A DNA stretch of 5,169 nucleotides from a virus (taxonomy: Duplodnaviria > Heunggongvirae > Uroviricota > Caudoviricetes): the IMG/VR virus record IMGVR_UViG_3300029518_000077, one strand, 5' to 3'. The translations under genes were made by a program, and so were the position numbers. Shown here one piece after another: positions 1 to 5,169 of this stretch. Each line of letters opens with the position of its first letter. Position 1 is the first letter of the stretch. The notes beneath the pieces were generated by a model, which did not search any database, had not been told where the DNA came from, and saw only the letters and a program-made list of their open reading frames with translations.

Positions 1-450
1 AACAAATTAATTTTTATAAATAACGATAATGCAGATGTGTTTTTAATGGCTCCATGCTTTGCTCTTGGCGCATTGTATGCTATAAACAAGGACAAAATAT
101 ACATTTCACCACATGCACCAATAGGATTTGCAATATTATATAATTTTGTGTCAGACCCAACACTCAAGCATATGCTTTTTTACTTTTGCGCATGTACATT
201 TTTCGTGTATTTATCAACAACAAAAATAATAAAATCAGTAAGAATAAAACATGATGTGTCATATGGCGTTTACTTGTGGGGCTTTTTAATACAGCAGATA
301 ACATTCAGGTTATTACCTGATATAAACCTGTACTTAAATCAAGTTTTATGCATAGCACTATCACTTATTGCTGGACTGATATCATTTATTGCGATAGAAA
401 AACCAGCAATGGATATTGGGAAAAAGATATCAAACAAATTCAGATATTAG
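1..450 (+). CDS. Acyltransferase family 3 membrane protein, C-terminal portion (likely phage-borne O-antigen acetyltransferase, Oac/OafA-like); 5' end outside the window
   Basis: ORF 37..450 is open in the same frame back to base 1 (NKLIFINNDNADVFLMAPCF...), so the gene probably starts upstream of the window. The product is strongly hydrophobic with multiple predicted transmembrane segments and has acyltransferase-3-like C-terminal motifs (SYGVYLWGF..., ...IEKPAMDIGKK). GC is about 25-30% against about 50% for the neighbouring genes. Stop TAG at 448-450 is followed directly by an intrinsic terminator. The position, convergent with the tailspike, matches where O-antigen modification genes sit in P22-like phages such as Sf6. 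Family assignment is by recalled motifs only. Confidence 0.62.
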   Translation, partial: NKLIFINNDNADVFLMAPCFALGALYAINKDKIYISPHAPIGFAILYNFVSDPTLKHMLFYFCACTFFVYLSTTKIIKSVRIKHDVSYGVYLWGFLIQQITFRLLPDINLYLNQVLCIALSLIAGLISFIAIEKPAMDIGKKISNKFRY

Positions 451-453
451 ATA

Positions 454-480
454 AAAAGGGGCTGAAAGCCCCTTTTTTTT
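454..480. terminator. Bidirectional rho-independent terminator shared by the convergent acyltransferase and tailspike genes
   Basis: Perfect inverted repeat AAAAGGGGC (454-462) / GCCCCTTTT (468-476) with loop TGAAA, followed by a T-run to 480 on the plus strand and flanked by an A-run (453-457) that gives a U-tract for minus-strand transcripts. It lies between the two convergent stop codons. Confidence 0.8.
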
Positions 481-2305
481 ACGTGGTAGTTGCGGATACC
501 TTCCATTCACCAGTTGATACGTATGTCCACTTCCACGGTCCGGTAGAAACCTGACCAAGCAATTCCCACTTGGTGCCAAACGGGAAATTAGTTGTATCTC
601 CCGTGGGTGGTGATACTNNNNNNNNNNNNNNNNNNNNNNNNNNNNNNNNNNNNNNNNNNNNNNNNNNNNNNNNNNNNNNNNNNNNNNNNNNNNNNNNNNN
701 NNNNNNNNNNNNNGTTGATCCTGCTCTGCCCACTACCCCATCTAATAGAATCAGTGGTGTTGTCGGGAATTACCGTACCATTAAAATTTGCAGTTGCATC
801 ATTAAGATATATGTATTTGCTAGATGAGCCTCCAGAGTAACTAGAAAAATGAGATGAAACCAATGAGATGAAACACGATTCCAGAGATACAGCTTCAACT
901 CCTCCATCATGATGATTAACCCCTCTAAATGCAGTTACGTTAATTCGACTACCATTTATATCAAATATTTTACCAGTGCTTTCTTCGCTTCCGCATCCAG
1001 ATAGATTCACTCCAGTACAATCTTTAAATTTATAGCCAGTACCATTAACGAAGTCAGCAGCCAAACAAGTCAGGCTGCTATATGTAATGTTATTAAAATC
1101 ATATGCAACACCTGAACATGTTTTCACATAAATATTGTTTAAATTATATGTGGTTCCACCTGCTTCGATTTTAACTCCAGTAACGACATCCTGAATAGTA
1201 ATGTTTTCCCATGTCTGCAACCAACTATCACTAGTGCGATAACCGGTTTTCACCCTATGAATATACAGGTCCTGAAGGCGCACATTGTAACTGATAGCGC
1301 TATATATCCCGTAATCACAAGGATTGGGCGCAGTATTTAGAATACTCAATCCAATTATTCTGGTGCTTCTTGTTTGTGTCCCGCTTAAATCACCTGATGT
1401 GTCACTATCCATATCTACCGCAACAATAAAGTCTNNNNNNNNNNNNNNNNNNNNNNNNNNNNNNNNNNNNNNNNNNNNNNNNNNNNTTTAATATCGTTAC
1501 CTGTTTTAATTAATCCACAGGAATCCATACCGCACCCCTCCAGCGTGACACGTGGAGGCACGATAGCGCCATACTTAATATCGTAAAATCCATTGAGTCT
1601 GAGCGTACCTCCTTCATATGGAAGGCATGCAGTCAGGCGTTCAAAGGCTTCACTGTTTTGCTCAGCCGTACATGATGTCATCATGCCACCGTTCTCTACC
1701 GGAATATCGATGTGGCTACCTGCTCTCTTCCATCGCTTACCGCCGGGGGTAACAAAAATATTCACACCATCGTCAGCTTCAGAACTGGAAAAGGCTATAA
1801 ACGTTCCTCCCCCAAGCCCGGGTGTGTCAGAGTAGTATCCACGAACAGTTATATTTTGCCCGACGAATGATGGCTCAATTGTTCTGAGCGTAGAAACGTC
1901 AGGGCATATTCCGATATATTTCTCTCCATCATCTTTCGCAATTTCTTCTTTTAACCTGATAATTCCCTGGTCAGGGTCGTACTTCAACACATTAGGAAAA
2001 TAGAACTGCTGCGCACCATACGCATCGTATACAGCCATAGAATGGCCTTGCACAGTTACGAACTTGGCAATCTGTCCGTTATATACCGGGTAACCAGCAG
2101 CGTTAATGATGATTGGCTGTGCAACAGGAACATGAGAACCATCTTCGTTCTCCACATAAACCTGAATCTGGTTTTCAGGATTTACCGGGTCAGTGTCAAT
2201 TTTACCGATATAAATTTTGCCATTGGCTACAGCTTTAAAAGAACGAGCCATAGTGAAGAGTTGAGAAGGCATGCTTACCACAACATTTGCGGTGATATCT
2301 GACAT
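479..2305 (-). CDS. Tailspike protein: P22 gp9-like N-terminal head-binding domain fused to a divergent receptor-binding domain; interrupted by two N-runs, 3' end uncertain (479 or 588)
   Basis: Minus-strand ORF 1415..2353 contains [59 protein letters not shown]...[31 protein letters not shown], a near-colinear match to the P22 tailspike head-binding domain as I recall it ([59 protein letters not shown]...[31 protein letters not shown]). The start is placed at ATG 2303-2305 (M of MSDITANV), with GGAG (complement of 2314-2317) 8 nt upstream. After YDPDQ the sequence is a different G/N/T/S-rich, beta-helix-like region. The ORF continues past the 1435-1486 gap in another frame (ORF 588..1412, open upstream to the gap: [11 protein letters not shown]...) and a third open segment in the original frame ends at TAA 479-481, abutting the terminator. 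Overall span of about 608 codons fits known P22-like tailspikes of roughly 620-710 aa. Confidence 0.82.
618..713. other. Run of 96 N (masked or unresolved sequence) inside the tailspike receptor-binding region
   Basis: Directly visible as n characters; the bases are not available for analysis. Confidence 0.97.
1435..1486. other. Run of 52 N (masked or unresolved sequence) inside the tailspike; reading frame differs on either side
   Basis: Directly visible. 52 is not a multiple of 3, and the open frames flanking the gap differ (codon phase 2 upstream, phase 0 downstream on the minus strand). Confidence 0.97.
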
Positions 2306-2426
2306 TTCATTGCTCCAGACGAATGATATGATGCAACCATGATGTGATTGCATACAGAAATGGTACTATTGAGTATTTATCCAGTAGGTTACGATGCCAT
2401 TCCACCCAACTGGTGAGGCATCAAGG
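2306..2426. promoter_or_regulatory. Divergent intergenic control region between tailspike and mnt starts; expected to hold the promoters and a repressor operator
   Basis: 121-bp non-coding gap between two divergent start codons. Contains inverted repeat ATGCAA (2331-2336) N11 TTGCAT (2348-2353), several ATGAT repeats (2323-2327, 2328-2332, 2339-2343) and an imperfect 22-bp dyad at 2366-2387. A possible minus-strand -10 TATCAT (complement of 2324-2329) lies upstream of the tailspike RBS. The -35/-10 assignment is not confident. Confidence 0.4.
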
Positions 2427-2687
2427 ATGTACAGCAAATACGACGAGGCGCAGTTTCACTTGAGACTTCCGCATGAACTCCACGCGAAAATTAAACAGCG
2501 TGCGAAGATGAATAACAGGTCTCTGAACTCAGAGATAATTGCAGCGATTGAAGAATCATTGGCTAAACAAAGCTCTGCATCCGTTTACATTGACGATGCA
2601 GAGCGTATGGCAGAACAACAATCTGATATGGTTAAGAAAATTGTCTTTGATACGCTCAAAGAGCTATATAAAAAAGACAGCAGCTAA
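2427..2687 (+). CDS. mnt: Mnt-like repressor, ribbon-helix-helix (Arc/Mnt/MetJ family)
   Basis: The 86-aa product MYSKYDEAQFHLRLPHELHAKIKQRAKMNNRSLNSEIIAAIEESLAKQSSASVYIDDAERMAEQQSDMVKKIVFDTLKELYKKDSS aligns along its length with P22 Mnt as I recall it (...HFNFRMPMEVREKLKFRAEANGRSMNSELLQIVQDALSK...NDAERLADEQSELVKKMVFDTLKDLYKKTT). Start is placed at ATG 2427 rather than the ORF-track ATG 2394 because GAGG (2415-2418) sits 8 nt upstream and the length then matches Mnt (83 aa). Stop TAA at 2685-2687. Confidence 0.85.
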   Translation: MYSKYDEAQFHLRLPHELHAKIKQRAKMNNRSLNSEIIAAIEESLAKQSSASVYIDDAERMAEQQSDMVKKIVFDTLKELYKKDSS

Positions 2688-2742
2688 CTANNNNNNNNNN
2701 NNNNNNNNNNNTGGTTTTTGCACGTTCCTGGTGTTTGCGAAG

Positions 2743-4740
2743 CTATTCTGACAACGCATCAGACTTGGCACCTTGAGTCAGGGCGTTAATGGCCTTTTGC
2801 GCCTGCTGCATGGCTTTCTCAAACGCTGTTGATCCGCGTGGGGTGTTTGCCATTCTGAGCATTGCATTTCTGAATGGTTCGCTCTCATAGGCGCGAGTAA
2901 GAAGTCCGTAGCTTACCGCTGCGCCAGTTGTCGCCGGGTTCATTGCCGTCCCATACCCGATAATGAACGGGATGGTTTGCTGCCCTGTTGGTGTTGTTAC
3001 TGCCGCTTTTGCAGCCTGCTGCGTGGATTGCAGGTAGTTTTTTAATCCCTTCAGATAAGCAGCGTCCTGCCCCTTAAATGTGATGCCAGTCTGGTTTTGC
3101 AGGATGTTAAGCTGCCGAAGGAACTGGTCAGGGGATCCGCCAGATTTCTCCATCGCCTTTCCAATGATGCCATTGCGCATTTGCGCCCTGCCAACACGAC
3201 CAACTGAGTTATACAGCGTCTTAATTTCAGATTTGTTCTTGCTGAATAGCATGTTGTTGACAACTTCCGGCGTCAGGTCGCCTTTCATGAGAACATTCTT
3301 CAGCCTGGTATTCTTTAGTTTCGCCGCTTCGTCAGCGTAGACGGCATTGGCCTGCTGATATTTACGGAGAGTATCGTTGCCAAGATTCTGACCAATGGCA
3401 CCATTGATATCGTCTGTCATCGCCTTGTAAACGCGCTGAATGGCGGCATCGGAACGGTTTGGTAACACTGGTCGCTCACCCTTCACGTCCATTCTGAACT
3501 GGCTGCGCAGGTCGCTTAATTGCTTCAAATCCAGATTTACCGGACCATCAGGGCCAGCATTGCGAACAAGCTCATCACGATATGACTGAAGTTTTGAAAT
3601 TGTCTCGTTATCAGCTACCTTACCAAGCTTCTGCAGATTAGATATCTCAGTATCAATCTGCTGAATTGCTCGCGCAGGCTGAATGTTTACTCCAGCCATA
3701 GCATTCTGAACCTGCTCCAGTCGATTACCGGCGGCACGACGAATTCCTGATGTTTTCGCTTTAAGGCTGTCAATAACAACCGCTGGATCATACTCACCAA
3801 ATTTATCAGCAAATCTCTGCACCAACTGGCTTCTCGCTTCCTGTTGCGTTGCTCTCATTCCGCTTGTGCCAGCCAGAGGGATATTTTCTGCTGTAGTCTG
3901 CGCCATTTTTCCGACGCGGGAAGTTGGTTGTAACAGGTCTGTGGTGTGCAGAGGAATTCCTTCACGCTCTGCAAATCTGATGGCCTGCTGCGCTTCTGGC
4001 GCGATAGCACCACGAACGCCACGATAAGCAGCACCTAATCCACGTCCAGCAGCGTTAATAGCACCGCCAGCAAGTACACCAACGCCTAAATCGGTGGCGA
4101 GTGCTTCCGCATCATCTTTCGCACTATTTGCAGCAAGTGACCCGACTGCGTTTTCTGCTAGAAGGCGAGTTGCACCATGAACAATTCGACCAGCAAGTGT
4201 TGGTGCCTGTGTTGCAGCTCTCTCAACTCCAGCAGGAGTGAGGTAAGGCAATGCTTCAGCAAATACCCTTCCCTCTGTCGTTTGTGGAGTCAGCACGCCT
4301 TGCTGAAGGCCAAAGTCCTGTTCTAATCCCTGCGTTGTTACTCGTGGCGCTGGGTGATATGTCCCATCGCCAATTCCGAGTTTACCGCCAGCCCAAGCCG
4401 CCGCGCTTGTTACAGCATCGGCAACTGATGCAGGTATGTTTGCCACGTTCACGCCAGCCTGCACCAGTCCGCGACCAGTTTCTTTCACGGCTTCACCAAG
4501 ATCAGACACAAATCCACTTTGCTGTGGTTGTTGCTGTGCTTCTGGTTGTTGTGTCTCCACTGGCTGCACAGATGGCAATGGATAGGCAGCATAGAAAGCT
4601 TGCTTAGCCTGCTCTGCATTTTCTCCGGCTTGCGGGGCCACGACTTCATTGAAGTATTGCTCCTGAGCCTGCGCTTTTTGTTCTGGTGCTAACGCCTGAT
4701 ACTGTGGAGAGGCGATAACATCTTTCCATGCTTTAGCCAT
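2743..4740 (-). CDS. Ejection / DNA-transfer protein, probably P22 gp16-like (665 aa)
   Basis: Long minus-strand ORF at about 52% GC. The product is low-complexity and A/Q/G-rich (...QAQEQYFNEVVAPQAGENAEQAKQAF..., PEAQQQPQQSGF...) with no obvious enzymatic motif, typical of podovirus ejection proteins. It is the last late gene before the mnt/tailspike module, which is the position of gene 16 in P22. Its start ATG (4738-4740) overlaps the upstream gene's stop, and a G-rich Shine-Dalgarno (GGGGTGA) precedes it. Assignment rests on synteny and composition, not on a remembered alignment. Confidence 0.6.
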   Translation of the reverse strand: MAKAWKDVIASPQYQALAPEQKAQAQEQYFNEVVAPQAGENAEQAKQAFYAAYPLPSVQPVETQQPEAQQQPQQSGFVSDLGEAVKETGRGLVQAGVNVANIPASVADAVTSAAAWAGGKLGIGDGTYHPAPRVTTQGLEQDFGLQQGVLTPQTTEGRVFAEALPYLTPAGVERAATQAPTLAGRIVHGATRLLAENAVGSLAANSAKDDAEALATDLGVGVLAGGAINAAGRGLGAAYRGVRGAIAPEAQQAIRFAEREGIPLHTTDLLQPTSRVGKMAQTTAENIPLAGTSGMRATQQEARSQLVQRFADKFGEYDPAVVIDSLKAKTSGIRRAAGNRLEQVQNAMAGVNIQPARAIQQIDTEISNLQKLGKVADNETISKLQSYRDELVRNAGPDGPVNLDLKQLSDLRSQFRMDVKGERPVLPNRSDAAIQRVYKAMTDDINGAIGQNLGNDTLRKYQQANAVYADEAAKLKNTRLKNVLMKGDLTPEVVNNMLFSKNKSEIKTLYNSVGRVGRAQMRNGIIGKAMEKSGGSPDQFLRQLNILQNQTGITFKGQDAAYLKGLKNYLQSTQQAAKAAVTTPTGQQTIPFIIGYGTAMNPATTGAAVSYGLLTRAYESEPFRNAMLRMANTPRGSTAFEKAMQQAQKAINALTQGAKSDALSE

Positions 4741-5169
4741 TAATCACCCCATAGTGAAGAAAAGTTACTGCTGGCTGCTGGCTGTGATACCTGCTCAGAT
4801 TGCGGCAATGTCTGCGACGAAGAAGAAGTTCCTCTGTCAACTGCTGAAATAACCCGCAAAGCATCATAAGCTCGACCAGAAGCAGCTTTCAGCGAATTGA
4901 ACTGGTTTTCCATCTTCCGGCGCTTGGTATCAATGGTTTTTGTGGAGTCGCCAGGCTGAGGGAAATACATTTGATAATATTTTGACATTTCAGCAGGTGC
5001 GATAGCTGCCCCTGTTTCCTGACGGAGTATTGCCATTATTGCGTCATTAGCATTAACAACGTATTGCTGCTCTGTTGGGCTGAGCGTTAAGTTAGCCAGC
5101 GTCCCATTACCCAAAGCATTATTAATGATCGCCACTCGCTGTGGGCTAAGCTGGTCTTTCAGTGTATCT
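4740..5169 (-). CDS. Ejection protein, probably P22 gp20-like; C-terminal portion, 5' end outside the window
   Basis: The minus-strand frame is open from the window edge (5169) to stop TAA at 4740-4742. The ORF track begins it at a GTG (5133-5135), but the frame continues upstream without a stop (...DTLKDQLSPQRVAIINN...). It is translationally coupled to the downstream gene. Identity is inferred from gene order only. Confidence 0.45.
   Translation of the reverse strand, partial: DTLKDQLSPQRVAIINNALGNGTLANLTLSPTEQQYVVNANDAIMAILRQETGAAIAPAEMSKYYQMYFPQPGDSTKTIDTKRRKMENQFNSLKAASGRAYDALRVISAVDRGTSSSSQTLPQSEQVSQPAASSNFSSLWGD

What the first reader, a model, noticed from the sequence alone, without database searches (positions are those of the whole stretch)
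1..480. AT-rich acyltransferase moron convergent on the tailspike: likely lysogenic-conversion (O-antigen acetylation) gene
GC drops from about 50% to about 25-30% at the terminator, a sign of separately acquired cargo. The product has the features of an integral-membrane acyltransferase-3 enzyme, the family of phage Sf6 Oac and Salmonella OafA. Prophage-encoded O-antigen modification commonly sits next to the tailspike and changes the very receptor that tailspike recognises, giving superinfection exclusion and serotype conversion. The two genes may therefore form one receptor-specificity module. The exact substrate is not determinable here.
Basis: partly seen in the sequence, partly recalled or inferred. 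Interest (0 to 1): 0.5.

Follow-up and report, generated by a model that had tools for sequence, protein, structure and literature searches.

The report
Prophage O-acetyltransferase gene beside tailspike
The first 450 bases are the tail end of a prophage gene for a membrane acyltransferase that most likely acetylates the cell-surface sugar chain recognised by the neighbouring tailspike, which is a known kind of lysogenic-conversion gene, though here it travels with the tailspike's receptor-binding part between unrelated prophages.

The parts
1..450 (+). 3' end of the acyltransferase-3 gene: residues 199-347 of a 347-aa protein (predicted TM6-TM10) plus the TAG stop at 448-450. About 594 nt of the gene lie upstream of the window.
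   Evidence: Open frame. DNA is 99.8-100% identical to full genes in L001, L019 and L030. Pfam PF01757 on the full length; PHROG 3333 on the fragment. The family-invariant residues F218, G221, D283, S285, Y286, G287, Y289, L290, Q297 and E331 fall at window 58-399.
253..297 (+). Most conserved motif inside the window: D-x-S-Y-G-x-Y-L-W-G-F-x-x-Q-Q (residues 283-297), also present in Sf6 Oac as DYSYGVYIYAFPVQQ.
   Evidence: Invariant or nearly invariant columns in the 58-sequence alignment; alignment with Sf6 Oac.
451..478 (.). Intergenic spacer filled by a bidirectional intrinsic terminator: A5, a 6-bp G+C stem with a 3-nt loop at 457-471, then a T8 run at 473-480.
   Evidence: Folds at -15.7 kcal/mol on both strands, z -2.7 and -4.4. 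Sf6 has an annotated oac terminator at the same place.
479..1787 (-). Receptor-binding part of the tailspike (about residues 175-605, stop at 479-481). It is inherited together with the acyltransferase. Mask Ns interrupt it at 618-713 and 1435-1486.
   Evidence: 98-100% identical in P22-like and phiV10-like contigs. The protein comparison shows near-identity from about residue 175. GC is 42%.
1788..2305 (-). Backbone-specific N-terminal part of the tailspike (P22-type head-binding domain, residues 1-113, plus linker). It is not part of the shared cassette.
   Evidence: Pfam PF09008 8e-68. It is common to 1406 E. coli genomes, whereas window 1-1967 is found in only one.

Best explanation
Window 1-450 is the C-terminal 43% of a single-domain AT3 integral-membrane O-acyltransferase carried as a moron by a P22/Sf6-like prophage.

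Shown:
- The protein belongs to the AT3 family and has the family's motifs.
- It has a 10-helix predicted fold like acetyl-CoA-dependent transmembrane acetyltransferases.
- It occupies the conversion slot next to the tailspike.
- It is intact in all 6 copies compared, with mostly synonymous differences.
- It is inherited as one block with the tailspike's receptor-binding part.

Inferred:
- In the lysogen it is transcribed from its own promoter region and stopped by the shared hairpin.
- It takes an acetyl group from cytoplasmic acetyl-CoA through the R18/H29 and R85/R88 site and transfers it to a sugar of the O-antigen on the periplasmic side.
- The sugar chain it modifies is the one the linked tailspike binds and cleaves. 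Acetylation would therefore block adsorption of the same and similar phages (superinfection exclusion) and alter the serotype.
- A phage that acquires the cassette gains a new host specificity and the matching receptor mask in one recombination event.
For: Family membership:
- The full gene scores PF01757 at 2.2e-25 and PHROG 'O-acetyltransferase' at 5.6e-37.
- R18-X10-H29, FFFISG and S84-R85-x-x-R88 are invariant or nearly invariant across 58 relatives. These match the residues found critical by mutagenesis in Oac and OacB (PMC8952252, PMC9558356).
- The AF2 model has pLDDT 93.9 and 10 long helices.
- Sf6 Oac aligns at 27% identity over 94% of the protein, E 5e-24.

Context:
- The order tRNA-Arg, intS, AT3, then convergent tailspike is the same as in Sf6.
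- In phiV10-like copies the gene replaces phiV10 oac, whose record annotates O-antigen acetylation and superinfection immunity.
- The cassette is at least 98% identical in both backbones.
- All 6 copies examined are intact. Between backbones there are 13 nt differences and only 3-4 amino-acid changes.
- Five of the 6 relatives examined, at 41-55% identity, sit beside phage receptor-binding genes.
- The sole carrier among 5426 complete genomes is one of the 20 with an O107/O117-type O-antigen cluster.
Against: - No experiment links this protein to any substrate.
- Identity to the characterised Oac proteins is low: 27% to Sf6 Oac and only marginal to phiV10 Oac (E 0.002).
- AT3 enzymes also modify other glycans (PMC9558356).
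- The prophage AT3 NeaT affected virulence, and its substrate was not identified: deleting it did not change sensitivity to lysozyme, which would be expected for a peptidoglycan modifier (PMC3573123).
- All catalytic motifs lie outside the window, and the window's own upstream sequence was not recovered.
- The promoter is only a consensus match.
- The O107/O117 link rests on one genome.
- By my recollection, not checked here, the published O107 and O117 structures carry no O-acetyl group.
Confidence: 0.72

Rival explanations
1. The enzyme acylates a different envelope glycan (capsule or K-antigen, enterobacterial common antigen, colanic acid, periplasmic glucans or peptidoglycan), not the O-antigen. 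The linked tailspike may then target that glycan, or the linkage may be incidental.
For: AT3 proteins have many substrates (PMC9558356). The tailspike's receptor-binding part has no close characterised relative: the best phage hit is 56.6% to an uncharacterised Kuttervirus tail protein, and there are only weak PDB matches. The target glycan therefore cannot be read from it.
Against: The AT3 peptidoglycan O-acetylase OatA and the O-antigen acetylases OafA/OafB carry an SGNH domain (PMC9558356), and this protein has none. Both characterised phage AT3 proteins in this exact slot act on O-antigen. The carrier VE-T9 has an ordinary wzx/wzy O-antigen cluster plus a colanic acid cluster in the 50 kb inspected, which showed no group 1 capsule locus.
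Confidence: 0.13
2. It is a host-fitness or virulence moron of the NeaT type. Its benefit would be to the bacterium in an animal host (immune evasion or serum survival), with no role in phage exclusion. It lies beside the tailspike only because that is a permissive moron site.
For: NeaT is a low-GC AT3 gene beside a tail fibre gene in a P2-like prophage, and it promotes bacteraemia fitness (PMC3573123). AT3 genes recur at moron positions in many phage types.
Against: A permissive site alone does not explain why the same acyltransferase and the same receptor-binding domain are inherited together in two different backbones, with breakpoints outside both. The two roles are also not mutually exclusive.
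Confidence: 0.08
3. It is a decaying remnant, or a short unrelated membrane protein that starts inside the window (GTG 37 or ATG 46).
For: The window shows only a partial ORF. The fragment alone is below the Pfam threshold.
Against: The frame is open to base 1. It continues for 198 more codons in every near-identical contig. All copies examined are intact, with mainly synonymous differences. The exact protein is indexed in 217 blocks of the assembly collection.
Confidence: 0.02

Closest known systems
Oac (OacA) of Shigella phage Sf6, the serotype-converting O-antigen O-acetyltransferase
   Same: It is a single-domain AT3 protein of similar size (333 against 347 aa). It has the same R-X10-H, FFxISG and SRxxR motifs and the same C-terminal D-x-SYGVY motif. 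The genomic slot is identical: attP/int, oac, terminator, then a convergent tailspike in a P22-like phage.
   Different: Identity is only 27%. GC is lower here: 32% for this gene against 42% for Sf6 oac as tabulated in PMC3573123. It is linked to an unrelated tailspike receptor-binding domain, so the acceptor sugar is almost certainly different. The activity is not demonstrated.
Oac of E. coli O157:H7 phage phiV10 (epsilon15-like)
   Same: It is an AT3 gene convergent on the tailspike, between the tailspike and the holin/lysis genes. Its record is annotated as acetylating the O-antigen and giving superinfection immunity. The cassette studied here occupies this same slot in phiV10-like prophages L020, L021 and L030.
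   Different: Sequence similarity is marginal (E 0.002 over 64 residues). It is a functional and positional analogue within the family, not an orthologue.
OafA / OafB (GtrC family II) of Salmonella
   Same: They share the AT3 domain with the R/K-X10-H motif and carry out O-antigen acetylation. OafB acetylation protects against the BTP1 tailspike (PMC9558356, PMC4413052).
   Different: They have a fused periplasmic SGNH domain and an eleventh helix. This protein ends after the AT3 domain (347 aa).
NeaT of E. coli CFT073 (P2-like prophage)
   Same: It is a low-GC, unameliorated AT3 moron transcribed opposite to the adjacent tail fibre gene. The paper already lists Sf6 and phiV10 homologues as part of a recurrent pattern (PMC3573123).
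   Different: It sits in a different phage type, its substrate is unknown, and its phenotype is virulence. Similarity to this protein was not measured.
Human HGSNAT and fungal GWT1 (transmembrane acyl-CoA acyltransferases)
   Different: Identity is about 11%. They have extra domains, are eukaryotic, and act on unrelated acceptors. No sequence-level PDB match was found, and Foldseek was not significant.

Membership tests
Acyltransferase-3 (Pfam PF01757, AT3) | PF01757 domain above the curated threshold | tested here: met
   The full-length copy, whose last 149 residues are identical to the window's, scores 89.9 bits against a cut-off of 31, E 2.2e-25, residues 12-324. The window fragment alone scores only 12.2 bits.
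Acyltransferase-3 (Pfam PF01757, AT3) | R/K-X10-H motif in the first transmembrane helix | tested here: met
   R18 is invariant and H29 is conserved in at least 90% of 58 relatives; the sequence is LIRIFCAISVIFAHS. The motif lies upstream of the window and is seen only in near-identical contigs.
Acyltransferase-3 (Pfam PF01757, AT3) | RXXR (SRxxR) motif after the third helix | tested here: met
   S84-R85-F-F-R88, with R85 and R88 invariant. These align with Oac R73 and R76 (PMC8952252). The motif lies upstream of the window.
Acyltransferase-3 (Pfam PF01757, AT3) | Polytopic membrane protein of about 10 helices | tested here: met
   The AF2 model (pLDDT 93.9) has 10 long helices, and hydropathy peaks agree. 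The window covers roughly helices 6-10. No dedicated topology predictor was available.
Acyltransferase-3 (Pfam PF01757, AT3) | Transmembrane acyl-CoA acyltransferase fold | tested here: met
Phage serotype-converting O-antigen O-acetyltransferases (Sf6 Oac, phiV10 Oac) | AT3-only protein encoded in a temperate phage beside, and convergent on, the tailspike gene | tested here: met
   Window 448-481, plus loci L001, L024-L032 and L020, compared with Sf6 and phiV10.
Phage serotype-converting O-antigen O-acetyltransferases (Sf6 Oac, phiV10 Oac) | Close sequence relationship (orthology) to a characterised Oac | tested here: not met
   27% identity to Sf6 Oac and only marginal similarity to phiV10 Oac. 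It is a homologue within AT3, not an orthologue.
Phage serotype-converting O-antigen O-acetyltransferases (Sf6 Oac, phiV10 Oac) | Demonstrated O-acetylation of the O-antigen with serotype change or loss of phage adsorption | not testable with these tools
   This needs LPS chemistry and adsorption assays. The only lead is that the one complete-genome carrier has an O107/O117-type cluster.
OafA/OafB-type AT3-SGNH O-antigen acetyltransferases | C-terminal periplasmic SGNH domain fused to the AT3 domain | tested here: not met
   The protein stops at residue 347, right after the AT3 domain. Pfam reports no second domain, and the stop codon is at window 448-450.

The most novel reading that the evidence does not exclude
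The acyltransferase, its promoter region, the bidirectional terminator and the tailspike receptor-binding domain form a self-contained 'key plus lock-changer' cassette about 2.6 kb long. The cassette is selected as a unit and hops by recombination between unrelated podovirus prophage lineages (P22-like at argW and phiV10/epsilon15-like near ppk-ppx). A phage would then switch host O-type and gain the matching exclusion function in a single event. If the target is O107/O117, the enzyme would create an O-acetylated variant that I do not recall being described.
Probability: 0.5. Interest if true: 0.45.

Novelty: new member of a known kind. Interest (0 to 1): 0.3.

Why it matters
Phage-borne O-antigen acetylases change serotype, vaccine epitopes and phage susceptibility. 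This one is uncharacterised, but the exact protein is indexed in 217 blocks of the assembly collection. The finding that it shares breakpoints with a tailspike receptor-binding domain across two phage lineages gives a concrete, testable case. It would show that receptor recognition and receptor masking are exchanged together, which bears on predicting phage host range and on designing phage therapy or typing. It does not reveal a new mechanism.

Tried and rejected
- Megablast of window 1-600 against the phage collection found nothing. The window's exact source contig was not found: every related contig differs by 2-4% in the backbone.
- NCBIfam gave no hit.
- Rfam found no RNA family in the window.
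- The terminator scanner missed the 457-480 hairpin, so it was checked by folding instead.
- I tested whether acyltransferase relatives at about 50% identity pair with related tailspike domains. They do not, so there is no evidence of long-term co-divergence, only of the recent shared cassette.
A protein search was not spent on it, because near-identical places are collapsed in the output and the sample list would have been hidden.
- Phage Hf4s was checked as a possible precedent. It uses gtrABC rather than an acyltransferase.

Full report
**The observation.** Frame 1 of the + strand is open from base 1 to a TAG at 448-450, which is 149 codons. The stretch has 30.9% GC, and 27.5% at third codon positions. 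With that composition an open frame of this length has a chance of about 5e-6, and the other five frames contain 4-18 stops. The low third-position GC shows the AT-richness is compositional and does not simply follow from a hydrophobic protein.

A hairpin follows directly: GGGGCU-GAA-AGCCCC at 457-472, preceded by A5 and followed by T8. It folds at -15.7 kcal/mol on either strand, with z -2.7 and -4.4. The tailspike gene on the - strand ends at 479-481, so the two genes converge with a 28-nt spacer that the hairpin fills.

Two details in the finding are inexact.
- GC is 31% left of the terminator but only 42% to its right, throughout the tailspike (479-2305). About 50% is reached only in the ejection-protein gene beyond 2.7 kb.
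- 'ATG 37' is a GTG at 37-39.

Runs of N at 618-713, 1435-1486 and 2691-2711 are masks. They make the ORF lister split the tailspike in two.

**What the gene is.** The 149-aa fragment alone is below Pfam's AT3 threshold (12.2 bits against 31), although it hits PHROG 3333 'O-acetyltransferase' at 4e-9.

E. coli VE-T9 (NZ_AP027963.1) carries DNA 99.8% identical to window 1-617, with one synonymous difference in the gene. There the gene is 1044 nt and encodes 347 aa; the window begins at residue 199. The full protein has a complete PF01757 domain (E 2.2e-25, residues 12-324) and nothing else, so there is no SGNH domain.

In an alignment of 58 relatives the following are invariant or nearly invariant:
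- In the N-terminal half: R18, H29, F60-F61-F62, S64-G65, R85 and R88.
- Inside the window: F218, G221, D283, S285, Y286, G287, Y289, L290, Q297 and E331.

R18-X10-H29, FFxISG and SRxxR are the motifs that mutagenesis identified as critical in Oac, OacB and OafA (PMC8952252; PMC9558356).

**Context.** In VE-T9 and eight further E. coli contigs the order is the same:
- fadL, mlaA, yfdC and tRNA-Arg (argW);
- intS, then 251 bp of spacer;
- the acyltransferase;
- the convergent tailspike;
- Mnt and the P22-type ejection proteins.

Sf6 has exactly this order: attP, int, oac, an annotated terminator, then the tailspike. Sf6 Oac aligns with this protein over 94% of its length at 27% identity (E 5e-24). 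The window's own upstream DNA could not be recovered, because no contig matches the window exactly across the backbone.

**The shared cassette.** Only one of 5426 complete E. coli genomes has window 1-1967, whereas 1406 have the backbone to its right. Draft assemblies are richer: the exact protein is indexed in 217 blocks of the assembly collection.

Among the loci fetched, the same acyltransferase and the same tailspike C-terminal part occur at 98-100% DNA identity in two unrelated backbones:
- P22/Sf6-like prophages at argW (window, L001, L018, L024-L029, L031, L032); L019 carries the same cassette and tailspike head-binding part but different DNA upstream and no integrase there.
- phiV10/epsilon15-like prophages next to the holin and lysis genes near ppk-ppx (L020, L021, L030).

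One phiV10-like copy (L030) is 100% identical to window 1-617.

The left breakpoint is about 210 bp upstream of the ATG in all backbones. The cassette therefore brings its own 5' region. That region contains a promoter-like site with an extended -10 (GTGAAA, 17 nt, TG-n-TACAAT) and an AGGTGA ribosome-binding site. This is a consensus match only.

The right breakpoint lies inside the tailspike at about residue 175, which is window ~1787. It falls within a domain that both backbones' spikes share at lower identity.

In phiV10 itself this slot holds oac, convergent on the tailspike and annotated as acetylating the O-antigen and giving superinfection immunity. phiV10 Oac is only marginally similar to the present protein. 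The cassette therefore replaces an analogous pair of genes; the two acyltransferases are not orthologues.

All six copies compared are intact. Copies from the two backbones differ by 13 nucleotides and 3-4 amino acids, which fits a functional gene.

**Relatives.** Homologues at 41-55% identity also lie beside receptor-binding genes:
- an argW siphovirus-like prophage (P0004);
- a Salmonella serovar Veneziana P22-like prophage at the equivalent site (P0005);
- an E. coli phiV10-like prophage (P0006);
- a Klebsiella Mu-like tail module (P0068), where one contig has two AT3 genes flanking a fibre gene.

The E. fergusonii copy is the exception and sits by an IS transposase. Their neighbouring spikes are unrelated to this one, so there is no sign of long co-divergence.

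The general pattern is already in the literature: low-GC, unameliorated AT3 genes at moron sites next to tail fibre genes, with Sf6 and phiV10 listed as examples (Wiles et al. 2013, PMC3573123).

**Mechanism.** Shown: family membership, motifs, fold, position, intactness and joint inheritance with the receptor-binding domain.

Inferred from the family and from Sf6, phiV10 and OafB (PMC9558356, PMC4413052):
- The enzyme moves an acetyl group from cytoplasmic acetyl-CoA to a sugar of the O-antigen on the periplasmic face.
- The modified chain is the one the linked tailspike recognises.
- Lysogens therefore resist adsorption by the same spike and change serotype.

The substrate cannot be read from sequence. 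One lead is that VE-T9, the sole complete-genome carrier, has an O107/O117-type wzx/wzy cluster, a type present in 20 of 5426 genomes (PMC7685785 for the O107/O117 pair). That is a single observation.

Rivals are another glycan as target, a NeaT-like host-fitness role without exclusion, or a remnant. The last is contradicted by the data.

**Verdict.** This is an uncharacterised member of a well-known class (phage AT3 O-acetyltransferases in the conversion slot), so novelty and interest are modest. The cassette exchange between P22-like and epsilon15-like prophages is the part worth following up.

Noticed in passing
window 618-713, 1435-1486, 2691-2711: Runs of N (masks) interrupt the tailspike and the spacer after mnt. 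The ORF lister therefore shows two tailspike pieces (588-1412 and 1415-2353). Near-identical contigs show one 605-aa gene at window 479-2305 (-).
   Followed up: yes
window 2306-2742; L001 14361-15211; L028 12991-14719: The immunity-I region between the tailspike and the ejection genes varies among otherwise near-identical prophages. The window and L026 have only an Arc/Mnt-family repressor gene (2394-2687, Pfam Arc 1e-14 and Mnt 3e-14). VE-T9 and L024 have an HNH endonuclease gene inserted. L028 has an antirepressor plus arc.
   Followed up: partly
L033 (NZ_AP027963.1 1742623-1757302): VE-T9, the only complete E. coli genome with the cassette, has an O107/O117-type O-antigen cluster, a type found in 20 of 5426 genomes. 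Its wzzB is annotated as a pseudogene with an internal stop.
   Followed up: partly
window 479-1787; phage STML-13-1 NC_042061.1 94542-95966: The tailspike receptor-binding part is 56.6% identical over residues 127-603 to a tail protein of virulent Salmonella phage STML-13-1 (157-kb genome). This suggests the domain is shared between temperate podoviruses and large virulent phages.
   Followed up: no
L039 848-5613 (Klebsiella Mu-like prophage contig): Two AT3 acyltransferase genes flank a Peptidase_S74 tail fibre or spike gene next to a Mu-type baseplate module. One of them is 41% identical to the protein studied here.
   Followed up: no
L034-L036 7001-8071 (E. fergusonii): A 48%-identical homologue lies outside any prophage, next to a DDE transposase gene between eut/pdu-type microcompartment genes and sbcB. 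This family is therefore not always phage-borne.
   Followed up: no
window 2743-5135 (-): A gp16-type ejection protein gene (665 aa, 2743-4740) overlaps by one base (4740) the stop codon of the upstream gp20-type gene, whose C-terminal end is at 4740-5135 and which runs off the window. GC here is 47-51%, typical for the host.
   Followed up: no
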